Part shown: positions 1 to 44,528 of the stretch, piece after piece
How positions within the stretch are numbered: the stretch's first letter is position 1
Layout: each line of letters begins with the position of its first letter
DNA from: Patescibacteria group bacterium
GTDB taxonomy: Bacteria > Patescibacteriota > Patescibacteriia > CAIXNZ01
Direction: 5' to 3'
Length of the DNA stretch: 64,000 bases
Assembly: GCA_041651155.1 (NCBI GenBank)
Contig: JBAZJU010000001.1
Span: 167,619-231,618 of the forward strand
Notes under the pieces: model-generated
The model's database searches: none
Told to the model about the DNA's origin: nothing
The model's input: the letters and a program-made list of their open reading frames with translations, nothing else
Translations under genes and position numbers: made by a program

Positions 1-564
1 GCAATATATTACATTGTAATCAAGACAAAAAATAATTACCCATATTTTAAAGAGAATATTTTTTGCGATTCGTTTATTGAGGATTTGAAAATTTGTAAAT
101 CATTGAAAGGTTTTAAGTTATACGCCTTTTCTATTATTTACGATCATGTGAATTTGATAATTAAACCGAATAATCAATTTAATATTTCCAAGATCATTAA
201 ATCATTGAAAGAAAACGTGTCAAGGAATATAAATATTATAATGGGTTATACGTTTAATCAAAATTCCCCGCTCTTCGTAGGCGAAACGACGTCGTTTCGC
301 CTACGAAGGAAGAGGATGAGACTATTTAATCTATTTAAGGGGAATTTTGATGATTCAAATGAAGGGAAAATAGATATTGCTCATTATAAAAAAGGATTTA
401 TAACGAAATTTGGTGATAAAAATAATTACCCAAAATTCAAATGGCAATTATCATTTTACGACCATTATATCCGTTTTCACGATAATCATTTGAAAAAGCA
501 AGGGGATTGGCCTTCGCCAACCGAAGTTGGCTTCGGCCAACGAAGGTTGGGATTATCATTTTGA
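1..564 (+). CDS. IS200/IS605-family Y1 (HUH) transposase / RAYT-like; 5' end lies off-window; probably degenerate
   Basis: Frame is open from base 1 (AIYYIVIKTKNNYPYF resembles the N-terminal beta-strand YHxVxxxKYR). YDHVNLII is a HuH-like motif with the second His replaced by Asn. WQLSFYDHYIRFHDNH matches the catalytic-Tyr region of IS200 TnpA. The ORF is interrupted in-frame by a 36-bp palindrome and ends in a REP-like palindrome. Confidence 0.5.
   Translation, partial: AIYYIVIKTKNNYPYFKENIFCDSFIEDLKICKSLKGFKLYAFSIIYDHVNLIIKPNNQFNISKIIKSLKENVSRNINIIMGYTFNQNSPLFVGETTSFRLRRKRMRLFNLFKGNFDDSNEGKIDIAHYKKGFITKFGDKNNYPKFKWQLSFYDHYIRFHDNHLKKQGDWPSPTEVGFGQRRLGLSF
273..308. repeat. 36-bp perfect palindrome inside the RAYT-like ORF
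   Basis: cttcgtaggcgaaacgacgtcgtttcgcctacgaag is self-complementary, read directly. Confidence 0.85.
507..550. repeat. REP-like compound palindrome (family B); inverted copy at 26943-26986
   Basis: ttggccttcgccaaccgaagttggcttcggccaacgaaggttgg equals the reverse complement of 26943-26986 with 2-3 mismatches. Confidence 0.75.
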
Positions 565-672
565 ATACACGGTTTATAACCATTTAAAGCACGGTTTGCC
601 GGGAAATTGGCAATATACAAGTTTAAATTATCCGGAGTTAATTGATAATATTGAAATTTAATTTTAAAAATT

Positions 673-945
673 ATGTCTGAAAAAAAATTTGGGGAAACTC
701 CGATAGATGCAAAAAATATCATTGAAGCAATCTTTGCAGAGAAGAAAAAGGAAGGTTTTATTTATGCAACAGACGAAAGTTTGACTGGATTTGTGAAGCA
801 AGATGACGGAACTTTTAAAGAAATGCAAACGCAATCCTTGGAAGACATTAAGGCAAGATATAGAAAAATAGATGGTGTCAAAGATGTGAGCCTGGTGAGA
901 ATTTCTGGAGATAACAATTTAATCTGGGTATTTCTTAAATATTAA
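673..945 (+). CDS. hypothetical protein
   Basis: ORF only; no recognised motif. Confidence 0.3.
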   Translation: MSEKKFGETPIDAKNIIEAIFAEKKKEGFIYATDESLTGFVKQDDGTFKEMQTQSLEDIKARYRKIDGVKDVSLVRISGDNNLIWVFLKY

Positions 946-2887: not shown

Positions 2888-3346
2888 ATGATAATTACTA
2901 TCTGTTCCACAATTAAATTCTGGCCCCAGATTTTGGAAGTTAAAAAACAGCTGGAAGATATGGGTCATGAAGTTTTAATCCCGCCTCATGAGGTGAAAAA
3001 TGAAACGGGTGATTTTATTCCCGTTGAAGAATATTATAAAATCCGCAGAGAAATGATGGCTAAAGATGGCCAAGAACACGATTGGATTTGGCAGCGTAAA
3101 AAAGAGGCCATCAATTGTCATTTTGCCAAAGTAGACAAGGCTGACGCTGTTTTAATTTTGAATTATGAGAAAAATGGGATTGACAATTACATCGGCGGCA
3201 ATACTTTTTTAGAAATGGGTTTGGCCTTTTGGCTTAATAAACCAATTTATTTAATCAATCCAATCCCCACGGAATTAAGCTACACCGAAGAAATAAAAGG
3301 CATGCAGCCGATTGTGATTAATGGGGATTTAAATTTGATAAAATAA
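2888..3346 (+). CDS. hypothetical protein (possibly nucleoside 2-deoxyribosyltransferase-like fold)
   Basis: Only a weak resemblance; assignment tentative. Confidence 0.3.
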   Translation: MIITICSTIKFWPQILEVKKQLEDMGHEVLIPPHEVKNETGDFIPVEEYYKIRREMMAKDGQEHDWIWQRKKEAINCHFAKVDKADAVLILNYEKNGIDNYIGGNTFLEMGLAFWLNKPIYLINPIPTELSYTEEIKGMQPIVINGDLNLIK

Positions 3347-3351
3347 TTTAT

Positions 3352-3439
3352 GCCCTGCTTTCCTGTCCGCTCGCCTCGGCGAAGCGGGCCAAAGCTTTTG
3401 CGACGGCGGAAGCAGGCTACTTGCCCACTGAAGTGGGGT
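3352..3439 (+). repeat. partial copy (GC-rich core plus cccact..gtggg hairpin) of the structured repeat family seen at 35401-35665 and 36755-37017
   Basis: Shares ctttcctgtccgctcgcctcggcgaagcgggccaaagc..gcgacggcggaag. Closing helix is cctgctttcc/ggaagcagg, which covaries against the other copies. Confidence 0.7.
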
Positions 3440-5133: not shown

Positions 5134-5215
5134 TAAATTCCAATAACCAAACACCAAATTCCAAATAAATTTCAAATCACAAATTCTAAATTCTAAACAG
5201 TTTGAAATTTGTAAT

Positions 5216-5707
5216 TTGAATATTGTGGTTTATTTGAGAATTGGGATTTGCGATTTGGTGCTTATAAATATGGTTTTCAAAAAAATAGAACACAAAATAA
5301 GAAGGATAATTAGCCATCGCCATTTTCAGAAATATGAAAAATACATCAGTTTGATTTTTTGGCTGGCGGCTATTTATTATCTCTCAAATAATTCTTTGCA
5401 AGAATTTGTGATTGTGGCTGACTGGTGGGAATTTATCATCCGCAAGCTGGCGCATATGTTTGAGTATGGCGTTTTAACCTATTTAATTTTCAGAATTTTA
5501 AGCCAGACTGAAAAAAGGCATGTGAACTGGAATTTATTCTGGTCTTTTATTTTTACAGTTTTGTATGCGATTTCTGATGAATATCACCAGACCTTTACTC
5601 TTGGCAGAACTGGCGTTTATACTGATGTGCTGATTGATGCTGCTGGCAGTTTAATTGCGATCTGGCTGATTTATTTAAATTACCGAGATAGAAAGAAATT
5701 AAAATAA
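5216..5707 (+). CDS. VanZ-like membrane protein
   Basis: Multi-TM protein with FEYGVLTYL VanZ-like motif. Confidence 0.45.
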   Translation: MNIVVYLRIGICDLVLINMVFKKIEHKIRRIISHRHFQKYEKYISLIFWLAAIYYLSNNSLQEFVIVADWWEFIIRKLAHMFEYGVLTYLIFRILSQTEKRHVNWNLFWSFIFTVLYAISDEYHQTFTLGRTGVYTDVLIDAAGSLIAIWLIYLNYRDRKKLK

Positions 5708-5763: not shown

Positions 5764-6348
5764 TTAATGTCTTAAAGTTCTTATTGCCTTTTCTAAATTA
5801 TCAGCTTGTTCAATTAAATCTGTAAATTTTTTGATTTCGGCTTGCTTCCTTTGCATTTCCAAACTGTTGCCTTCTTTTTCAGATTCATCTCTGGCCGCAA
5901 TTAATTCGTCTAACCTTGCTCCAAAAAGATTCCTTAATGTTTCAACATCAATTAGTCCTTTGTCGCCCGCTAAATTATGTGAAATATTTTCTATTTTAAG
6001 TTTAGCAAGCATTAGTTCTCCGGCTTCTCTTTGCATGTCTCTATATTCAGCTATATAATTCTTGTCTTTTATCATGCCTTCTTCGCAAAAGCTCATGAAA
6101 CTTTTTAATTTCTCAAGTGAAGAATCTTTCATTTTGTCCCGATACTCTTGAAATTTCATTTTTTTAGAGACATCTTCAGTCGTTTCTGTTTCGCCCATAA
6201 ATCCCTTTGGCTTTTGGCCAGTATATATCTCTTTTTCCGGCTTTGGTTCTTTGCCTTCCATTTCAAAAATAGCCCTCCGGCCTTCCTCTTCAGTTATTAA
6301 GCCTGGTACTTTTTCATGGCCATTTTGTGACATTTCTGGTGAATTCAT
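5764..6348 (-). CDS. hypothetical charged/coiled-coil protein
   Basis: ORF only. Confidence 0.4.
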   Translation of the reverse strand: MNSPEMSQNGHEKVPGLITEEEGRRAIFEMEGKEPKPEKEIYTGQKPKGFMGETETTEDVSKKMKFQEYRDKMKDSSLEKLKSFMSFCEEGMIKDKNYIAEYRDMQREAGELMLAKLKIENISHNLAGDKGLIDVETLRNLFGARLDELIAARDESEKEGNSLEMQRKQAEIKKFTDLIEQADNLEKAIRTLRH

Positions 6349-6468
6349 AAAATTAAATTTTAACTTGTTATGTTTGAATTATAGCATATTTGATCAATTA
6401 AGTCAACTCTTGACATTTTTTATTTTTATTGCTATGATTTAATGTAAATTCAAAAAAGGAGGTGTAAC

Positions 6469-6816
6469 TTGCTTATCTTATCTAATGAGCTAAAAGCAAA
6501 ATTGGGATTTGAAATTTCCGAATTAAACGTTAATTTTGAGCCACAAAAATTTTTAGAACTCTTTCAGACAGTCAAAGAATTATGTGAGAAAGGTCACGTT
6601 GAAGAAGTTGAACAAATGTTACTCCAGGCTTTGGCTGAAGGAGTGGACATAGCCAACGGTTATCTTTATCTCTTGTACTTTAATTTCGGACCGCGTGAAA
6701 AATCAAGGCAATATTTTGACCAAGTAAAGAAAATGTTTCCAGCTGAAGAGTTTTGGTCGGGTTTGGCCAAAGCATCTATCTGGGATGAATTTTCCCAAGC
6801 GGAAAAATGCAATTAG
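6469..6816 (+). CDS. hypothetical protein (TTG start)
   Basis: Shine-Dalgarno aaggagg lies 6 nt upstream of the TTG start. Confidence 0.4.
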   Translation: MLILSNELKAKLGFEISELNVNFEPQKFLELFQTVKELCEKGHVEEVEQMLLQALAEGVDIANGYLYLLYFNFGPREKSRQYFDQVKKMFPAEEFWSGLAKASIWDEFSQAEKCN

Positions 6817-11718: not shown

Positions 11719-11749
11719 AAGAAGGCGAACCATAAGGTTCGCCTTTTTA
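11719..11749. terminator. intrinsic terminator
   Basis: aaggcgaacc ataa ggttcgcctt followed by ttt. Confidence 0.7.
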
Positions 11750-16362: not shown

Positions 16363-17043
16363 ATGAAATTAAATAATTTTCAATTTAACAATAAAGATTT
16401 TGCAATTTATACTCGCAGCCAGGCGGATAAAAGCATAATGAAAGAAATTTTTGAATTGCGGGAATATAAAGAAGTTGAAGCAATTATTAAGTCAGCCAAA
16501 CATCCAATCATAGACGCAGGAGCGCAGGCTGGCTTTTTTGTTTTGTACTGCAGGGCTTTAAATCAAGAAGTTAAAATTCTGGCCATTGAACCTGATGAGA
16601 ATAATTTGGAATTACTTAATCAGCATTTGGAAATTAATCAAATTAAAAATGTTGAGGTGATACCAGCTGCGCTGGCTGGCAAAAATGGTTTGCGGGATTT
16701 TTTTATTTCAAATGATACTCATAACCATGGGCTATTTAAAATTTTGGTACCAAAGATAAATAGGGTCAGTAAAGTTAAAACTTTTAGTTTGGATGATTTA
16801 TTGGAGGAGCAGGGAATTGAGAAGGTTGGTTTATTAAAATTAGATATTGAAGGCGCGGAATTTGAAGTATTAGAAAATTTTATTCATTGGGAGAAAATAA
16901 AAAACATTGCTTTGGAATACCACGATTTTAATGGTTTTAAGCATCAAGAAATAGAAAAGATTTTGGCAGAAAATGGTTTTAAAGTGAAAATAAGAAGTTC
17001 AAAGTTTGAGCAGAATTTAGGGTTTATTTTCGGTTTGAAATAA
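16363..17043 (+). CDS. FkbM-family methyltransferase
   Basis: SAM-methyltransferase fold motifs (IIDAGAQAGFF, LAIEPD), FkbM-like length. Confidence 0.65.
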   Translation: MKLNNFQFNNKDFAIYTRSQADKSIMKEIFELREYKEVEAIIKSAKHPIIDAGAQAGFFVLYCRALNQEVKILAIEPDENNLELLNQHLEINQIKNVEVIPAALAGKNGLRDFFISNDTHNHGLFKILVPKINRVSKVKTFSLDDLLEEQGIEKVGLLKLDIEGAEFEVLENFIHWEKIKNIALEYHDFNGFKHQEIEKILAENGFKVKIRSSKFEQNLGFIFGLK

Positions 17044-17141
17044 AAAATTCCCTCTTTGTCATTCCGAGAGTAACGAGGAGTCTATTACATCGGTGTAACA
17101 GATCCTTCACTTCGTTCAGGATGACAAAGAGGGAATTTTTT
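17043..17141. repeat. ~100-bp long hairpin (~20-27 bp stem) between convergent genes; terminator or structured element
   Basis: aaaaattccctctttgtcattcc pairs with ggatgacaaagagggaatttttt; an inner ttacatcggtgtaa hairpin sits in the loop. Confidence 0.6.
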
Positions 17142-17152
17142 ATTTGAGAAGA

Positions 17153-20709: not shown

Positions 20710-20731
20710 GCCTGCCTGCCGGCAGGCAGGC
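20710..20731. repeat. GC-rich perfect palindrome gcctgcctgccggcaggcaggc (second copy at 33566-33585)
   Basis: Read directly; flanked by cgaat..ttcgaataa direct words. Confidence 0.8.
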
Positions 20732-26942: not shown

Positions 26943-26986
26943 CCAACCTACGTTGGGCGAAGCCAACTTCGGTTGGCGAAGGCCAA
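26943..26986. repeat. REP-like compound palindrome (family B), inverted copy of 507-550
   Basis: ccaacctacgttgggcgaagccaacttcggttggcgaaggccaa. Confidence 0.75.
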
Positions 26987-27126
26987 ATAAATTACAATGT
27001 TCAAGTCCTAATTTCCAAACGTTTGTTATTTAGAATTTGGTATTTGAATTTTGTTTGATATTTGTTATTTGGTATTTGTGATTTGAAAAAATAAGAGAAA
27101 ATTATAATTATTTTAACTTAGAATAT

Positions 27127-29896: not shown

Positions 29897-29930
29897 AAAG
29901 AACATGCCACTCTTGGCATGTTCTTTCTCT
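29897..29930. terminator. hairpin gaacatgccactcttggcatgttc (shares the tgccactcttggca core with the hairpin at 30229-30262)
   Basis: A-run upstream and T-rich downstream, so bidirectional terminator-like. Confidence 0.5.
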
Positions 29931-29932
29931 TG

Positions 29933-30164
29933 TGACCCGGCCCCAAAGGGGAGCCTTCGGCTTTGGGGTAGGATGTTTCGTTTTTGATTTATTTATGACC
30001 CGGCCCCAAAGGGGAGCCTTCGGCTCTGGGGTAGGATATTTCGTTTTTGATTTATTTGTGACCCGGCCCCAAAGGGGAGCCTTCGGCTCTGGGGTAGGAT
30101 ATTTCGTTTTTGATTTATTTGTGACCCGGCCCCAAAGGGGAGCCTTCGGCTCTGGGGTTCGAAC
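29933..30164 (-). repeat. tandem array of 4 x 63 bp: decayed tRNA 3'-end remnants each carrying GC hairpins (gagccttcggctc, ccccaaagggg)
   Basis: Units start at 29933, 29996, 30059 and 30122. On the minus strand each ends CCGGGTCA, identical to the tRNA-Lys acceptor 3' end; unit 4 additionally retains a GTTCGAA T-loop. Confidence 0.8.
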
Positions 30165-30265: not shown

Positions 30266-30338
30266 TGACCCGGCTGGGGTTCGAACCCAGGACCCTCTGC
30301 TTAAAAGGCAGATGCTCTACCAGCTGAGCTACCGAGTC
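30266..30338 (-). tRNA. tRNA-Lys (anticodon UUU)
   Basis: Minus-strand sequence GACTCGGTAGCTCAGCTGGTAGAGCATCTGCCTTTTAAGCAGAGGGTCCTGGGTTCGAACCCCAGCCGGGTCA folds as a canonical cloverleaf; no CCA encoded. Confidence 0.9.
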
Positions 30339-33369: not shown

Positions 33370-33565
33370 TTTCTGTCCTCCTTAATTTAATAATAAATAC
33401 ATAATTGCTTTTAGTCAACCTCGCTTTTTGCGAAGTGAAGTGCAGGATCAAGGTTGATTTGGCTAAATAATTATGTTAGAATGCTTATATCTTTAATTGA
33501 AACGAATATACTAATCTCATACTAATGATACTAATATTTATTACTTTTTTGATTAGTATTATTAG

Positions 33566-33585
33566 CCTGCCTGCCGGCAGGCAGG
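33566..33585. repeat. GC-rich perfect palindrome cctgcctgccggcaggcagg (copy of 20711-20730)
   Basis: Read directly; flanked by an AT-rich dyad of tactaat / attagta words. Confidence 0.8.
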
Positions 33586-33611
33586 CAAAATATTAGTAAA
33601 TTAGTATCCTT

Positions 33612-35400: not shown

Positions 35401-35665
35401 GCCAGGCAATGGGCGATTTTTTGATTGGTAATGTGATTCTCCGACGAAGAAGCGATTGGCCAATCGCTCCTTCAATGCGGGGGAATTAATCAAAAAATCG
35501 CCTGTTAAAATTTATACCCCACTTTCTTGTCCGCTCGCCTCGGCGAAGCGGGCCAAAGCATAACGACAGCGGAAGTGGGTTTTTTATTTGGCCTGCTAAA
35601 GCAGTGTATAATTTTGTAAATAAAAAATCCTGAACCATATTGGGTCCAGGATATAAGAGCCGCGA
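35401..35665 (+). repeat. ~265-bp structured multi-hairpin element, copy 1 (candidate structured ncRNA / terminator-associated repeat)
   Basis: Nested long hairpin (caggcgattttttgattgg .. ccaatcaaaaaatcgcctg around the palindrome gaagaagcgattgg/ccaatcgcttcttc). GC-rich core gtccgctcgcctcggcgaagcgggccaaagc closed by cccacttt/aagtggg plus T-run; two further small hairpins follow. 90% identical to 36755-37017. Confidence 0.8.
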
Positions 35666-35693
35666 CAGGTACTTTGGCTCTATCTTAATTTTT

Positions 35694-35975
35694 TTACTTG
35701 TCGTAATAGCAGATATATGTGGCTGGTTCTGTTGCTTCGAAGATGATGGGATCGCCGACTTTGATATCACAGTCCTGGGATGAAATGGCGCGATATTCAG
35801 TGCCATTGATTGTGATTTTGTTGTGAATAACGGTAATACTTTCAGGGGCTTTGGCGATACCAAAATCGTATTTACCGGGAAGAACAACACCAATTGTTGC
35901 TTTTTTACCCAAGAAAGTGGTAAAGCCCAGCGATTGGACTTGTCCATCAAAGTAAGTATTGTGTTTGATTTCCAT
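35694..35975 (-). CDS. ppnP: pyrimidine/purine nucleoside phosphorylase PpnP (DUF1255 cupin)
   Basis: MEIKHNTYFDGQVQSLGF..GVVLPGKYDFG..YICYY aligns along its length with E. coli YaiE/PpnP. Confidence 0.8.
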   Translation of the reverse strand: MEIKHNTYFDGQVQSLGFTTFLGKKATIGVVLPGKYDFGIAKAPESITVIHNKITINGTEYRAISSQDCDIKVGDPIIFEATEPATYICYYDK

Positions 35976-35986
35976 TCAATCCTCCT

Positions 35987-36343
35987 TTACTTATTATCAA
36001 GATATTTCTTGGCCAGCATTGCCCAGGTCGGATCGCCATAACGAATGATTTTCTCAACTTGCGGCGCCCAGTATTCTAGGCGCATGCGGTAAGGTTCATG
36101 GGTTAAATTATATCCGATTTGGAGCTGTAGCTCGCATTTTTTGGGATTATTGGTCTCACACCAGATATTATAGACGACCATTAATCGGCCGTCTTTTAGC
36201 TGGATAAAATCGCTTTTTTGGACTGAAGCGAGCTCCTTAATAAGGCTCGGATCATATGTGGCTTGACCCTGGCTGTTGCAGCCAACAAGCATACACAGAA
36301 ACAGGGAAAAGATTATTACTGACAAGAGACATCTTTTTTCCAT
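35987..36343 (-). CDS. lipoprotein, unknown function
   Basis: Signal peptide with LVGC lipobox. Confidence 0.45.
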   Translation of the reverse strand: MEKRCLLSVIIFSLFLCMLVGCNSQGQATYDPSLIKELASVQKSDFIQLKDGRLMVVYNIWCETNNPKKCELQLQIGYNLTHEPYRMRLEYWAPQVEKIIRYGDPTWAMLAKKYLDNK

Positions 36344-36367
36344 CTTTTTCTCCTTTCAAAGTTCTTG

Positions 36368-36604
36368 TTATGGTTTTTTGTAAAACCATTGGTAAATACC
36401 GTAAATCCAGCTGCCAGTGTAAACCACATTCATTAACATTATGCCCCATTGATGATTATGATACGTGGTTATGTACCAGAAGGGTTGCGAGGCTAAACCG
36501 CAAACAAAACCCCACTTGTTTTTTCGGGAAATGAGAATTATTGCCAAGATGCCAAAGATACAGATGGCTATTTGGCTTATATTTTCCCAATTAAGATATT
36601 GCAT
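36368..36604 (-). pseudogene. truncated PnuC-like nicotinamide riboside transporter fragment (78 aa; full PnuC is ~190-230 aa)
   Basis: ISRKNKWGFVCGL..WYITTY resembles the PnuC N-terminal helices; the ORF ends after ~2 TM helices. Confidence 0.4.
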
Positions 36605-36754
36605 TTTTAAAGAACCTCCTTGTAGTTTGCCTTAATTTAAGCGCAGATTAGAGATTTTGTCAACCCAGTCTTAATAGTTCAATAGCTTGGAAACGTTTAT
36701 GATAAGATAAAATGGCTACAATTAAAAGTTTTATGAAAGATTAAGTGAAATTTC

Positions 36755-37017
36755 GCCTAGACAGGCGATTTTTTGATTGGCATTTTTTTGACCCGACGAA
36801 GAAGCGATTGCCAATCGCTTCTTCAATGTGGGGGAATTAATCAAAAAATCGCCTGCCAAATTTATGTCCCACTTTCTTGTCCGCTCGCCTCGGCGAAGCG
36901 GGCCAAAGCATAGCGACGGCGGAAGTGAGCTTTTTTATTTGGCCTGCTAAAGCAGGGTATAAATTTTTAAATAAAAAATCCCGAACCACATTGGGTCCAG
37001 GATATAGAGTTGCGGAA
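36755..37017 (+). repeat. ~265-bp structured multi-hairpin element, copy 2
   Basis: Same architecture as 35401-35665; the inner palindrome is perfect here. Confidence 0.8.
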
Positions 37018-41124: not shown

Positions 41125-41187
41125 ATAAAATATTGCGAAGGCGGGGGAAGGTCATGTACTGCCACTATACTAATCCCGCAGGGCGAA

Positions 41188-42165
41188 ATGACAAATAACA
41201 AATATCAAATGACAAATAAAATCCAAAATTCAAAACTCAAATTACAAACTTTCAGATTTTGTTTTATTTTGTTATTTATTTTAGCAGTAATTGGCTTGCC
41301 GGTCAATTCTGTTTTTGCTGTTGAAAATCCTTTCGGTAACGAAGCAGACAATCAGCCTGATTTAAGACAAATTCAGTTTATTGATTCTAATGTCCAGCCA
41401 GTTGTTCAACCTGCTAGTGATTTAGCGCCAGAACAAAACGAAGTTCAGGTTGATGGCTCAAATAGCGCAAACGTGATTGTTCTAAATCCTGATGCTTATA
41501 AAATTACCGCTGCTGAGGCAAAAGCCGGCAAAAAATTCAAAGTTTTTGATAATAAATTCATTTTTCAAATTGATAAAAATACTTTTTCTGACAAAGCGAC
41601 TTTGGATTTGACTGAAATGATTTTAACTCCAGGCAGTAAAATGAGTCCGCCTTTGGGTTTTCAAATGGCCAGTAAAATTTACGAGTATAATTTAAAAACC
41701 GAACCTGGAGTAAAATTTAACGAGCCGTTTTGGTTTTCTATTAAATATGACAGCAGCGATTATTTTCGTAAAAATCTTTATTATTATGATGAATTGAAAG
41801 CAGAATGGGTTGGCTTGCCTTCTCTTATTAAAAATGGGGAGAGCAAAATAGTTTCTAATTTTTCTTTGCCTTATGCTAAAGTTGCAATTTTAGAAGATAT
41901 CAGCATTATGACCGAAGGCACTGCTTCCTGGTACAAATATAAAGGCTGTAATTGCGCAGCTTCTCCCGATTATCCCAAAGGCACAAAATTAAAAGTTACT
42001 AATATAGATAATGGCAAATCAGTCATTGTTAAAGTAAATGACTGGGGACCGGATCGTTCTGTCCATCCTACCCGGGTCATTGATTTAGATGTCGTGGCTT
42101 TTAAACAAATTGCCAAAAAATCAGCTGGACTGTGCAAAGTTAAAGTTGAACCTGCAGTCAAATAA
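41188..42165 (+). CDS. secreted protein with C-terminal RlpA-like double-psi beta-barrel domain
   Basis: Signal/TM helix; SWYKYKGCNCAASPDYPKGTKLKVTNIDNGKSVIVKVNDWGPD is an RlpA/DPBB motif. The first ~20 codons are translated from the AT-rich CAAAT-word spacer, so the true start may be downstream. Confidence 0.65.
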   Translation: MTNNKYQMTNKIQNSKLKLQTFRFCFILLFILAVIGLPVNSVFAVENPFGNEADNQPDLRQIQFIDSNVQPVVQPASDLAPEQNEVQVDGSNSANVIVLNPDAYKITAAEAKAGKKFKVFDNKFIFQIDKNTFSDKATLDLTEMILTPGSKMSPPLGFQMASKIYEYNLKTEPGVKFNEPFWFSIKYDSSDYFRKNLYYYDELKAEWVGLPSLIKNGESKIVSNFSLPYAKVAILEDISIMTEGTASWYKYKGCNCAASPDYPKGTKLKVTNIDNGKSVIVKVNDWGPDRSVHPTRVIDLDVVAFKQIAKKSAGLCKVKVEPAVK

Positions 42166-42288: not shown

Positions 42289-42969
42289 ATGATAAATTTT
42301 AAAAAAGTCAGTAAAATATATTATCCCAAGTCAGTGGCTTTAAAGGATATATGCCTGCAGATTATGCCCAAAGAATTTATTTCCATTGTTGGCCAGAGCG
42401 GGGCAGGCAAAAGCACGCTGATTAAAATTTTGACTGCCCAGGAAAAGCCCGAGCAAGGCAGAGTGATTGTCGGCGGCTGGGATATTACGGACATTGGGCA
42501 GAAAGATATTCCTATCTTAAGGCGGCAAATCGGCGTAGTTTATCAGGATTTTAAATTATTGCCGAAAAAAACTGTGTTTGAAAATGTGGCTTTTGCCTTG
42601 GAGGTATGCGGCATTAGCTCTAATAAAATCTGCAATATTATACCTCAGGTTTTAAAAATCGTGGGTTTAAAAGATAAGACTGACCGTTATCCTCACCAGC
42701 TATCCGGGGGAGAGATACAGCGTGCGGCTATTGCCCGCGCCTTGGTGCATCGCCCCAAGATTTTGCTGGCAGATGAGCCCACGGGCAATTTGGACAGCTT
42801 GAACACCAAAGATATTATTGATTTGCTTTTAAAAATAAATGAATTCGGCACCACTGTAATGCTGGTGACCCACAATAAGGACGTGGTAAATCGCATTAAA
42901 AAAAGAGTGGTGCTTCTGGACGCAGGGCAGGTGATTAGTGATCAGGAAGAAGGGAAGTACGTGTTGTAA
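42289..42969 (+). CDS. ftsE: cell-division ABC ATPase FtsE
   Basis: Walker A GQSGAGKST, signature LSGGE, Walker B ILLADEPTG. Confidence 0.9.
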   Translation: MINFKKVSKIYYPKSVALKDICLQIMPKEFISIVGQSGAGKSTLIKILTAQEKPEQGRVIVGGWDITDIGQKDIPILRRQIGVVYQDFKLLPKKTVFENVAFALEVCGISSNKICNIIPQVLKIVGLKDKTDRYPHQLSGGEIQRAAIARALVHRPKILLADEPTGNLDSLNTKDIIDLLLKINEFGTTVMLVTHNKDVVNRIKKRVVLLDAGQVISDQEEGKYVL

Positions 42970-43045
42970 ATGACAAATAACAAATGCCAAATTTCAAATA
43001 AAATTCAAATATAAAATAACAAATTCCAAACATAATTATTTTACG

Positions 43046-44384: not shown

Positions 44385-44528
44385 TGCTCCTGAAGGGAAT
44401 TGAACCCCCATCTCCAATTGTTTGAATTCCTTTTGTTTAGCCTATGTACACTTAGCTAAGCCGGGATCAAACAATCTCCCAGTTGGGAGGCGTGCCTAGC
44501 CGTTGTTTTGCCATTAAACTACAAGAGC
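44385..44528 (-). ncRNA. 144-nt tRNA-like gene: intact acceptor stem, D-arm and T-arm, anticodon arm replaced by ~85 nt folding into two hairpins
   Basis: 5' GCTCTTG-TA-GTTT-AATGGCA-AAAC .. 3' GGGGG-TTCAATT-CCCTT-CAGGAGC-A. Insert hairpins: ctccc-aact-gggag, and ttgtttga..tcaaacaa enclosing ttagc..gctaa. No canonical anticodon stem-loop found. Confidence 0.4.

What the first reader, a model, noticed from the sequence alone, without database searches (positions are those of the whole stretch)
1..564. Degenerate RAYT/IS200-like Y1 transposase ORF riddled with palindromes, one of them a REP copy recurring at 26943-26986
The ORF, open from the window edge, has the N-terminal strand, a HuH-like motif (HVN, second His lost) and the WQxxFYDHxIR catalytic-tyrosine region of IS200/RAYT proteins.
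It also contains a 36-bp perfect palindrome (273-308) in-frame and ends in a 44-bp GC-rich compound palindrome (507-550) whose inverted copy lies 26 kb away in the ftsW-murG spacer.
RAYTs are the enzymes thought to disseminate REPs; here a REP-like element appears to have invaded the transposase gene itself.
Basis: partly seen in the sequence, partly recalled or inferred. Interest (0 to 1): 0.5.

Follow-up and report, generated by a model that had tools for sequence, protein, structure and literature searches.

The report
REP-carrying RAYT gene, freshly broken
The window starts inside a domesticated RAYT-type tyrosine nuclease gene of a Patescibacteria (CPR) bacterium. Like almost all its relatives it carries a GTAG-footed palindromic repeat (REP) in frame, and in this genome a 40-base insertion of a second small hairpin repeat has just broken it. 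This is a clear but largely already described kind of arrangement.

Summary

**The gene.** Window 1-661 is the 3' 93% of a single-copy, syntenic RAYT-like Y1 (HUH-superfamily) gene of a Patescibacteria genome.
- Pfam Y1_Tnp scores above its cut-off.
- The best match among solved structures, by sequence and by fold, is E. coli TnpAREP (4ER8).

**The 36-bp palindrome (273-308).** It is not a chance palindrome or a recent invader.
- Its core is a "double-foot" REP, GTAGGCG-N14-CGCCTAC.
- It sits at the same loop position in nearly every family member (33-85% amino-acid identity).
- It keeps a fixed 28-bp geometry and stays palindromic through two-sided changes.
- It has identical or similar copies beside the gene or dispersed in other CPR genomes.
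- REPs inserted in frame between HuH and Tyr of tnpAREP genes are already described (subclass 2.4, Quentin 2018), though not in CPR.

**The 44-bp element.** It is a true recent insertion.
- Four syntenic orthologues have an exact 40-nt gap at 511-550.
- The insertion shifts the frame six codons before the real catalytic Tyr (codon 566-568).

**"HVN".** This is a conserved clade trait (45/58 sequences, dN/dS about 0.1), not decay.

Verdict: a new CPR variant of a known kind, of moderate interest.

The parts
1..510 (+). RAYT-like Y1 gene, residues 16-185, frame 1. The first 15 codons lie upstream of the window (L001 10001-10045).
142..153 (+). D-H-V-N: HuH motif with Asn in place of the second His, a conserved clade trait.
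   Evidence: the HUQ precedent in circovirus Rep is from PMC9973303
273..308 (.). Perfect 36-bp palindrome. Its core at 277-304, GTAGGCG-N14-CGCCTAC, is a double-foot REP. It encodes LFVGETTSFRLR in the low-confidence loop between HuH and Tyr.
442..474 (+). WQLSFYDHYIR: counterpart of the TnpAREP W94/Q95/E100/H101/R104 GTAG-guide binding motif. It is not the catalytic Tyr.
511..550 (+). 40-nt insertion, absent from syntenic orthologues. TTGG at 507-510 is repeated at 547-550, so the boundaries are ambiguous by 4 nt. It consists of three mini-hairpins and causes the frameshift.
562..564 (+). Premature TGA of the shifted frame; end of the annotated 202-aa product P0003.
551..661 (+). Displaced 3' end of the gene in frame 2: DYHFEYTVYNHLKHG...EI*. 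It holds the catalytic Tyr codon at 566-568, the metal ligands Asn at 578-580 and His at 590-592, and the native stop at 659-661.
26943..26986 (-). Second copy of the 44-nt mini-hairpin repeat (42/44, inverted), in the FtsW-MurG spacer.

Best explanation
**What it is (shown).** Window 1-661 is a single-copy, vertically inherited RAYT-type (TnpAREP-like) Y1 nuclease gene of a Patescibacteria genome. It contains two unrelated palindromic repeats.

1. **The double-foot REP at 273-308.** Its form is a 5' G(T/A)AG foot, a hairpin, and the complementary foot.
   - It lies in frame in a structurally disordered loop between the HuH and Tyr motifs.
   - It is at the same site in nearly all family members.
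   - Its geometry is fixed (7 + 14 + 7 bp).
   - It remains a perfect palindrome while its sequence changes on both arms.
   - The same 28-mers occur just upstream or downstream of the gene, and at other loci, in related genomes.
2. **The 40-nt insertion at 511-550.** It belongs to a different three-mini-hairpin repeat family.
   - Related copies are at 26943-26986 and in three other CPR genomes.
   - It is absent from syntenic orthologues.
   - It shifts the frame six codons before the catalytic Tyr.
   - This genome's copy is therefore a very recent pseudogene, or at most a catalytically dead DNA-binding remnant.

**How it works (inferred, by homology with E. coli TnpAREP).**
- The intact enzyme binds the G(T/A)AG foot plus hairpin on single-stranded DNA through the invariant W-Q..D-H..R motif.
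- It cleaves and rejoins with the Tyr of EYTVYN.
- The metal is held by H-u-N together with the Asn and His of the Tyr helix.
- The intragenic REP is an old, tolerated insertion of the enzyme's own substrate type. It is kept palindromic by recognition on either strand and/or by conversion from sister copies.
- The 44-nt repeat presents GAAG next to a short hairpin on both strands. It may be mobilised by the same class of enzyme; I put this at about 0.4.
For: **Family and fold**
- Pfam Y1_Tnp scores 35.2 bits against a cut-off of 23.
- 4ER8 is the best PDB hit by profile.
- AlphaFold model: pLDDT 82.9, with low confidence only at residues 1-6 and 102-133, the segment that holds the REP-coded peptide.
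- Foldseek top hit is 4ER8, E 2.6e-6.
- Catalytic and guide residues come from Messing 2012 and Quentin 2018. They are invariant in 58 relatives.

**Domestication**
- The same neighbours (FdtA-like | Y1 | HIT | RF-1) are found in four genomes at 58-85% identity.
- All four places shown of the 24 contigs carrying P0040 have one context.
- dN/dS is 0.06-0.22 with dS 0.85-1.9.

**Intragenic REP**
- An unbiased best-hairpin scan finds a 14-19 bp perfect stem at the same site in 20 of the 28 metagenome homologues scanned, plus this genome's own copy.
- The geometry is fixed.
- 36 distinct copies: the 14 core pairs are paired in about 99% of cells, with 175 two-sided changes against 71 in shuffles. 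Slid controls give 33-44% paired.
- L019 reads the palindrome in another frame.
- There are 0/36 differences among four orthologues whose remaining positions differ by 16-23%.
- Extragenic copies lie next to the gene in L052, L023, L005, L011 and L115.
- The genome scan gave 62 sites, almost all in Patescibacteria MAGs. 14 are in or beside the Y1 gene and 48 elsewhere, with up to 5 per genome.

**Insertion**
- The orthologues show an exact 40-nt gap.
- The truncated ORF P0003 is on contigs of two different lengths.
- Related copies with compensatory stem changes are in L053, L049 and L117.
Against: - In the 74 kb available for this genome there is only the one intragenic canonical REP and no flanking REP. 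A REPtron arrangement is therefore not shown for this genome.
- The window's genome was not among the GTDB representatives, so its genome-wide copy numbers are unknown.
- NCBIfam REP_Tyr_transpos scores 47 bits, below its cut-off of 80.
- The foot is GAAG more often than the canonical GT[AG]G.
- E. coli TnpAREP needs an imperfect, bulged hairpin, whereas these palindromes are perfect.
- HuN activity is untested.
- The covariation set was picked with a pattern and a palindromy filter, which inflates the pairing in the outer 7 bp.
- Nothing shows which enzyme moved the 44-nt element.
Confidence: 0.75

Rival explanations
1. The internal palindrome is primarily a cis-regulatory element of the gene, not a passenger REP. 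For example, it could be an mRNA or ssDNA hairpin used for autoregulation by the protein or for attenuation of translation. This partly overlaps with the best explanation.
For: - It is retained at one site across the whole family, with zero substitutions among orthologues at near-saturated dS.
- The stem is strong: -20.4 kcal/mol, z -6.4.
- The gene sits in co-directional housekeeping gene arrays with short spacers.
- Di Nocera 2013 proposes that REP hairpins could down-regulate RAYT expression.
Against: - The same 28-mers occur in intergenic regions and inside unrelated ORFs.
- Complementarity extends through the central 4 nt, which cannot pair in a hairpin.
- No U-tract follows the stem.
- No expression data exist.
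Confidence: 0.2
2. The 44-nt element is an independent MITE- or terminator-like repeat that has nothing to do with RAYT activity. It would have been inserted by another transposase or by a replication or repair accident. Alternatively the insertion is a minority variant or an assembly artefact.
For: - TTGG occurs at both ends, which is compatible with a 4-bp target duplication.
- It has no canonical GTAG foot in this copy.
- Its other copies are in operon spacers.
- It folds as three tetraloop hairpins.
Against: - GAAG lies directly 5' of a hairpin on both strands, and the L053 copy has GTAG...CTAC.
- Concerted TTGG/CCAA to TTTG/CAAA or TCGG/CCGA changes show a structured, evolving family.
- The identical truncated ORF is on contigs of 348 kb and 294 kb.
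Confidence: 0.4
3. It is a live or decaying IS200/IS605-type insertion sequence.
For: - Pfam Y1_Tnp hit.
- IS200/IS605 TnpA structures follow 4ER8 in the fold search.
- Some relatives have hairpins on both flanks, for example L011.
Against: - NCBIfam transpos_IS200 scores 24.8 bits against a cut-off of 55.
- There is one copy per genome, in conserved synteny, across dS > 1.
- The W-Q..D-H..R and Y---N..H motifs are of the TnpAREP type.
- There are no conserved element ends.
Confidence: 0.03
4. The conservation at 273-308 reflects a conserved peptide (VGETxxxRLR), and the palindrome is a by-product.
For: G109, R115 and L116 are nearly invariant in the protein alignment.
Against: - Amino-acid pairs follow base complementarity: E(GAA)/F, D(GAC)/C, E(GAG)/S, H(CAC)/G.
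- L019 translates the palindrome in another frame.
- The segment is predicted to be disordered.
- There are no synonymous changes in 12 codons.
- Identical copies lie in non-coding DNA.
Confidence: 0.02

Closest known systems
TnpAREP / RAYT subclass 2.4 (RAYT group 4) with 'double-foot' REPs inserted inside the tnpAREP gene (Quentin et al. 2018, PMC6006769)
   Same: - REP with a 5' GT[AG]G-type foot and its complement at the 3' end.
- REP inserted in frame between the HuH and Tyr motifs, in a peripheral variable loop.
- Enlarged HuH-Y spacing.
- Low gene copy number.
- REPs also flank the gene in some genomes.
   Different: - The host clade is Patescibacteria, which that paper does not mention.
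- HuN replaces HuH in 45/58 sequences.
- The Tyr signature is Y---NH/F rather than Y---NP in most.
- The foot is G(A/T)AG.
- The palindromes are perfect with a strict 28-bp geometry.
- The HuH-Y distance is 92-136 aa, against a median of 88.
- Sequence membership in 2.4 could not be tested.
E. coli TnpAREP-REP (REPtron), PDB 4ER8 (Messing et al. 2012, PMC3479197)
   Same: - Best sequence-profile and fold match.
- The counterparts of Y115, N119 and H123 and of W94, Q95, H101 and R104 are conserved.
- GTAG foot plus hairpin substrate type.
- Single-copy domesticated gene.
   Different: - E. coli REPs are imperfect, bulged, extragenic and present in hundreds of copies. Here they are perfect palindromes, few per genome, and one lies inside the gene.
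- The second His of HuH is Asn.
Rickettsia palindromic elements and other intragenic REPs (discussed in Di Nocera et al. 2013, PMC3733652)
   Same: Small palindromic repeats are inserted in frame into protein-coding genes and tolerated in loops. This is also seen here in other ORFs of CPR genomes.
   Different: - RPEs carry a CGTC tag and have no dedicated transposase.
- Here the host gene is the presumptive mobilising enzyme itself.
- The second repeat breaks the frame.
IS200/IS605 TnpA (IS608, ISDra2)
   Same: Y1 HUH fold, and ssDNA hairpin plus guide-tetranucleotide logic.
   Different: Not mobile, no left or right element ends, single copy in synteny, and below the NCBIfam IS200 cut-off.

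Membership tests
Y1_Tnp / TnpAY1 superfamily (PF01797) | Profile match above the curated cut-off | tested here: met
   35.2 bits against a cut-off of 23; the fold search returns only Y1 transposases at E < 1e-3.
Y1_Tnp / TnpAY1 superfamily (PF01797) | His-hydrophobic-His motif | tested here: not met
   The window has H-V-N at 145-153. 45/58 relatives have HuN and 13/58 have HuH. The first His is invariant. HUQ is functional in circovirus Rep, so activity is plausible but unproven.
Y1_Tnp / TnpAY1 superfamily (PF01797) | Catalytic Tyr on the C-terminal helix, in frame with the rest | tested here: not met
   The Tyr is invariant in the family (Y191). In this window its codon (566-568) is out of frame, behind the 40-nt insertion and the TGA at 562-564.
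RAYT / TnpAREP (class 2 TnpAY1) | Y---NP signature of class 2 | tested here: inconclusive
   Y and N are invariant. The next residue is H (35), F (14) or P (5) among 58 sequences.
RAYT / TnpAREP (class 2 TnpAY1) | GTAG-guide binding residues W94, Q95, E100/D, H101, R104 | tested here: met
   W 58/58, Q 56/58, D 57/58, H 58/58, R 57/58; the residue list is and the alignment to 4ER8.
RAYT / TnpAREP (class 2 TnpAY1) | Single or low copy, not an IS, vertically inherited | tested here: met
   Conserved synteny in four orthologous loci; one context for P0040 in the four places shown; purifying selection.
RAYT / TnpAREP (class 2 TnpAY1) | Gene flanked by cognate REPs (REPtron) | tested here: inconclusive
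   There is no flanking REP in this genome. Flanking copies exist in the relatives L052, L023, L005, L011, L054 (degenerate) and L115.
RAYT / TnpAREP (class 2 TnpAY1) | Cognate REPs dispersed in the same genome | tested here: inconclusive
   Relatives have 2-5 exact-pattern sites per MAG. This genome has 1 site in 74 kb, and the rest of the genome is not available.
RAYT / TnpAREP (class 2 TnpAY1) | NCBIfam REP_Tyr_transpos equivalog cut-off | tested here: not met
   47.1 bits against a cut-off of 80.
TnpAREP subclass 2.4 (RAYT group 4) | Double-foot REP, and REP inserted in frame between HuH and Y | tested here: met
   the definition is.
TnpAREP subclass 2.4 (RAYT group 4) | Clustering with subclass 2.4 sequences or profile | not testable with these tools
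   No labelled subclass 2.4 sequences or profiles were available.
IS200/IS605 insertion sequence | NCBIfam transpos_IS200 cut-off; multiple copies with conserved ends | tested here: not met
   24.8 bits against a cut-off of 55; fixed synteny.
REP (applied to the 44-nt element) | Repeated, palindromic, with a 5' GT[AG]G foot at a hairpin | tested here: inconclusive
   There are two copies in 74 kb, plus relatives in L049, L053 and L117. It forms three mini-hairpins. The foot is GAAG here and GTAG in L053. Genome-wide copy number is unknown.

The most novel reading that the evidence does not exclude
The intragenic REP is not a tolerated passenger but a functional partner. On this reading, Patescibacteria RAYT genes carry the master copy of their own substrate. 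Its perfect two-fold symmetry, right through the centre, is actively regenerated by the HuN enzyme or by hairpin-templated conversion. From this copy, low-copy REPs are seeded next to the gene, into spacers and in frame into other proteins. That would make the gene-plus-REP a self-contained replicator unit, in contrast to the classical REPtron.
Probability: 0.15. Interest if true: 0.7.

Novelty: new variant of a known kind. Interest (0 to 1): 0.45.

Why it matters
RAYT/REP systems are the best example of a domesticated transposase co-evolving with a population of non-autonomous repeats, yet how REPs are made and maintained is still unclear.

This CPR family offers an unusually clean comparative data set:
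- one gene;
- one fixed site;
- a 28-bp palindrome of invariant geometry whose sequence turns over by two-sided changes;
- very small genomes with only a few REP copies.

It also shows three further things:
- An HuN active-site variant is under strong purifying selection.
- REP-type palindromes are written in frame into CPR proteins.
- The RAYT itself can be knocked out by a sister repeat.

For annotation, the practical point is that the '202-aa transposase' called here is a frameshifted pseudogene. The peptide VGETTSFRLR is repeat-encoded.

Tried and rejected
- **Single-sequence PDB search:** it gave only a marginal hit, 2FYX at E 0.43. The profile search was needed.
- **Rfam:** at gathering score it finds only tRNAs in the window. 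At E <= 1 on 1-700 it finds only meaningless sub-threshold miRNA-precursor hits on the hairpin.
- **Promoter and terminator scan around the gene:** promoter-like sites are at shuffle level. The terminator-like hits are just the 44-nt element.
- **Structure string for pair counting:** the first string had the wrong length.
- **Genome-collection scan:** it did not recover the window's own genome, so genome-wide copy counts for this organism could not be made.
- **Search for protein columns that track the GAAG versus GTAG foot:** it gave only the trivially encoded V/E codon and one N-terminal position (Q versus P/I). That position is confounded with phylogeny, so it is kept only as a lead.
- **Short AGGCG...CGCCT hairpin at 11721-11746 (GAAGGCGAACC-ATAA-GGTTCGCCTT + T-run):** considered as a second REP copy but not counted. 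Its geometry is N12, its 3' foot is incomplete, and it looks like an ordinary terminator between convergent genes.
- **Literature searches for RAYT or REP in CPR/Patescibacteria:** nothing relevant was found.
Full report
**Observation**

Frame 1 is open from base 1 to the TGA at 562-564 and encodes a Y1-type protein.
- DHVN is at 142-153 and WQLSFYDHYIR at 442-474.
- 273-308 is a perfect 36-bp palindrome. It is the longest in the window: stem 18, against 8-12 in 20 shuffles, with about 4e-6 expected.
- 507-550 and 26943-26986 are 42/44 complementary.
- The second copy lies between an FtsW-family ORF and a MurG-type ORF.

So the described features exist. Two points of the description are wrong, as shown below: the location of the catalytic tyrosine and the true end of the gene.

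**The gene**

- The translated ORF matches Pfam Y1_Tnp above its cut-off (35 bits against 23).
- It matches NCBIfam REP_Tyr_transpos best but below its cut-off (47 against 80). The IS200 model scores far lower (24.8 against 55).
- A database search gave 70 relatives. All that carry a source name are from Patescibacteria-type MAGs (Uhrbacteria, Parcubacteria, Peregrinibacteria).
- P0003 is this genome's own call: 202 aa, on contigs of 348 and 294 kb.
- Extending upstream (L001) gives an intact start, MKLHKNSPKRIYFPG....
- A profile of the family hits E. coli TnpAREP (4ER8) as the best solved structure.
- An AlphaFold model of the orthologue P0002 (pLDDT 82.9, pTM 0.81) has 4ER8 as its top Foldseek match (E 2.6e-6), followed by IS200/IS605 TnpA structures.

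In the alignment to 4ER8, WQxSFYDHxIR corresponds to W94-Q95...E100-H101...R104. Quentin et al. 2018 list these as the residues that bind the GTAG guide. The catalytic Y115, with the metal ligands N119 and H123 (Messing et al. 2012), corresponds to the Y, N and H of E-Y-TVY-N-HLK-H-G. Across 58 relatives these positions are invariant or nearly so.

**The gene is domesticated, not an insertion sequence**

- In four other genomes (58-85% amino-acid identity) the gene sits between the same neighbours: an FdtA-like sugar isomerase, then Y1, then HIT, RF-1-domain and nitroreductase or NUDIX genes.
- The four places shown, of the 24 contigs that carry P0040, share one context (PDZ protease | Y1 | PGK).
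- Pairwise dN/dS among orthologues is 0.06-0.22 at dS 0.85-1.9. This includes the in-silico repaired window copy, at 0.09-0.14.
- The second His of HuH is Asn in 45 of 58 relatives. 'HVN' is therefore a selected clade trait, not decay.
- Circovirus Reps use HUQ, with the Gln coordinating Mn2+ (PMC9973303). An amide ligand at this position is therefore compatible with catalysis. That this extends to Asn is an inference.

**The 44-bp element is a recent insertion that breaks the gene**

- A DNA alignment of the five syntenic genes shows an exact 40-nt gap in all four orthologues. They read ...GAT TGG | GAT TAT CAT..., whereas the window has CCTTCG...GGTTGG at 511-550.
- TTGG occurs at both junctions, so the boundaries are ambiguous by 4 nt.
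- Removing the 40 nt restores ...KKQGDWDYHFEYTVYNHLKHGLPGNWQYTSLNYPELIDNIEI*, which is the family consensus.
- The insertion lies six codons before the catalytic Tyr codon (566-568). That codon, with the Asn and His ligands and the native stop (659-661), now sits in frame 2 behind a premature TGA.
- The displaced part is still an open frame, and the repaired gene shows no excess of non-synonymous change. The event is therefore recent.

The element itself has these properties.
- It folds as three adjacent 5-6 bp hairpins with tetraloops, z about -4.
- It is built as TTGG-CCTTCG-CCAA-CCGAAG-TTGG-CTTCGG-CCAA-CGAAGG-TTGG.
- Related copies exist in the atpD-atpC spacer of L053, with GAAG/CTTC changed to GTAG/CTAC.
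- A copy in a spacer of L049 has every TTGG/CCAA changed to TTTG/CAAA.
- A copy in L117 has TCGG/CCGA and sits inside the reading frame of a glycosylase-like ORF (sequence-based guess, not profile-tested).
- It is thus a structured repeat family shared by distant CPR genomes.
- It presents GAAG directly 5' of a hairpin on both strands, which resembles a short REP. Which enzyme moves it is unknown.

**The 36-bp palindrome is the more informative feature**

Conservation across the family:
- In the protein alignment the encoded peptide is conserved as (V/E)G(E/D)T...(F/C/S)RL.
- Its amino-acid pairs follow base complementarity: E(GAA)/F(TTT), D(GAC)/C(TGT), E(GAG)/S(TCT), H(CAC)/G(GGC).
- I fetched 46 metagenome loci and asked, without any motif, for the best hairpin in each homologous ORF. 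In 20 of the 28 metagenome homologues scanned this gave a perfect stem of 14-19 bp at the same position, nearly always with no loop.
- All share G(T/A)AGGCG-N14-CGCCT(A/T)C, a strict 28-bp geometry with a variable palindromic centre.
- In L019 the palindrome is translated in a different frame.

Pairing statistics, on 36 distinct copies:
- The 14 core pairs are paired in about 99% of cells.
- There are 175 two-sided changes, against 71 ± 6 in shuffles.
- Slid controls give 33-44% paired.
- Caveat: these copies were selected with a pattern and a palindromy filter.

Constraint at the nucleotide level:
- Among four orthologues whose other positions differ by 16-23%, the 36 bp show no difference (P about 1e-3 to 1e-4 per pair).
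- L051 and L052 differ by double, compensating changes.
- The encoded segment falls in the only low-confidence stretch of the model, residues 102-133.

**These palindromes are REPs**

- GTAG followed by a hairpin is the signature of RAYT substrates.
- A 5' foot plus its complement at the 3' end is the 'double-foot' REP of Quentin et al. 2018.
- Copies lie outside the gene:
  - an identical 28-mer in the spacer just upstream of the start codon in L052;
  - similar ones upstream in L023 and, degenerate, in L054;
  - downstream in L005;
  - on both sides in L011;
  - 4 kb away in L055.
- I scanned one genome per species for GWAGGCGANACGNNNNCGTNTCGCCTWC. This found 59 stretches (62 sites), almost all in Patescibacteria MAGs.
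  - 14 sites are in or beside a Y1 gene.
  - 48 are elsewhere, in spacers or inside other large ORFs.
  - Several MAGs have 3-5 sites, usually identical within a genome. The Kuenenbacteria MAG JABMRF01 has five identical copies, including the intragenic one.
  - The Uhrbacteria orthologue DSBA01 has the window's exact 28-mer once in the gene and once in a spacer.
- In the 74 kb available for the window's own genome, only the intragenic copy is present. That genome was not in the scanned collection.

**Comparison with what is known**

Quentin et al. [quoted passage not shown] The insertions are in frame, generally between HuH and Y, in a peripheral variable region. Double-foot REPs occur in that subclass. 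The central phenomenon is therefore already described.

What differs here:
- the host clade, since Patescibacteria are not mentioned in that paper and I found no paper on RAYT or REP in CPR;
- the HuN motif;
- Y---N followed by H or F rather than P;
- a foot that is GAAG more often than GTAG;
- perfect rather than imperfect palindromes with a fixed length;
- an HuH-Y distance of 92-136 aa;
- a low REP number.

Whether the family belongs to subclass 2.4 by sequence could not be tested.

**Mechanism**

- Shown: gene identity and fold; domestication; the insertion and its consequence; the family-wide, nucleotide-level conservation of the palindrome; and its repeat nature.
- Inferred from TnpAREP: the intact enzyme binds foot plus hairpin on ssDNA and cleaves and rejoins with Tyr.
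- Inferred: the intragenic REP is an old insertion of its own substrate type into a permissive loop.
- Open: why symmetry reaches the very centre, where bases cannot pair in a hairpin. The central tetranucleotide is self-complementary in 47 of 60 scan sites.
- Open: why 12 of 60 copies have 5 or more additional complementary flank bases unique to each copy, with no target duplication. These observations point to a DNA-level symmetric process: conversion, hairpin-templated repair, or insertion into existing palindromes. I could not discriminate among them.

**Verdict**

- Three corrections apply:
  - The gene family is not degenerate.
  - The catalytic Tyr lies beyond the insertion.
  - The canonical REP is the 36-bp palindrome, an ancient in-frame resident.
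- This is a new CPR variant of a known arrangement, of moderate interest.

Noticed in passing
window 20710-20731 and 33565-33586; L048 8729-8748; L021 1362-1383: A GC-rich perfect palindrome, GCCTGCCTGCCGGCAGGCAGGC, recurs in this window and in two other CPR genomes. It is another cross-genome palindromic repeat family, unrelated in sequence to the two studied.
   Followed up: no
L060-L118 (genome-scan sites), e.g. L092 307, L095 148, L084 6573, L065 13: 12 of 60 double-foot REP copies have 5 or more further complementary bases in their flanks. These bases differ from copy to copy, about 0.1 such copies are expected by chance, and there are no direct target duplications. This suggests insertion into existing palindromes or outward extension of the palindrome.
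   Followed up: partly
L064 2752, L070 3241, L075 1281, L098 1015, L113 3827, L115 4394 and 4725: Double-foot REPs lie inside large ORFs other than the RAYT gene in several Patescibacteria MAGs. REP-encoded peptides may therefore be common in CPR proteins.
   Followed up: no
L117 6117-6160 and 6656-6683: A TCGG/CCGA variant of the 44-nt mini-hairpin repeat lies inside an ORF (5994-6644, minus strand) that looks from its sequence like a 3-methyladenine-glycosylase gene (not profile-tested), without interrupting its reading frame. A double-foot REP identical to the window's 28-mer lies in the next spacer.
   Followed up: partly
window 3344-3421, 35508-35585, 36858-36935; 35412-37006: A 78-nt GC-rich repeat occurs in three copies, and there is a duplication of several segments at a spacing of about 1351 nt.
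   Followed up: no
window 17038-17089 / 17094-17145: A 52-nt inverted repeat contains TTGTCATTCCGAGAGTAACGAGGAGTC. A similar motif is seen in L117 near 5970.
   Followed up: no
window 5135-5216, 27003-27084, 41186-41260, 42968-43042: An AT-rich dispersed repeat family (AAATGACAAATAACAAAT...). One copy lies 17 nt from the 44-nt element in the FtsW-MurG spacer.
   Followed up: no
window 44385-44528 (-): Rfam reports a 144-nt tRNA match (39 bits) that ARAGORN does not call. It may be an interrupted or intron-containing tRNA.
   Followed up: partly
window 29930-30158: A 63-nt tandem repeat (copies 96-97% identical) lies just upstream of tRNA-Lys at 30266-30338.
   Followed up: no
window 673-945: A 90-aa ORF with no Pfam match sits between the RAYT gene and the HIT gene. 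It is absent from the orthologous loci L048, L049, L051 and L052, where HIT follows the RAYT gene directly.
   Followed up: no
family alignment, N-terminal motif H(K/R)NSxKR (L001 10010-10030 region): Residue x is Q in 15/15 genes whose internal REP has a GAAG foot. It is P or I in 9/12 genes with a GTAG foot. This may be a specificity determinant, but it is confounded with phylogeny.
   Followed up: partly
L022, L027, L028: Several metagenomic homologues have ORFs that stop early (66-96 aa) although the tblastn similarity continues. Frameshifted or broken copies of this gene may therefore not be rare.
   Followed up: no
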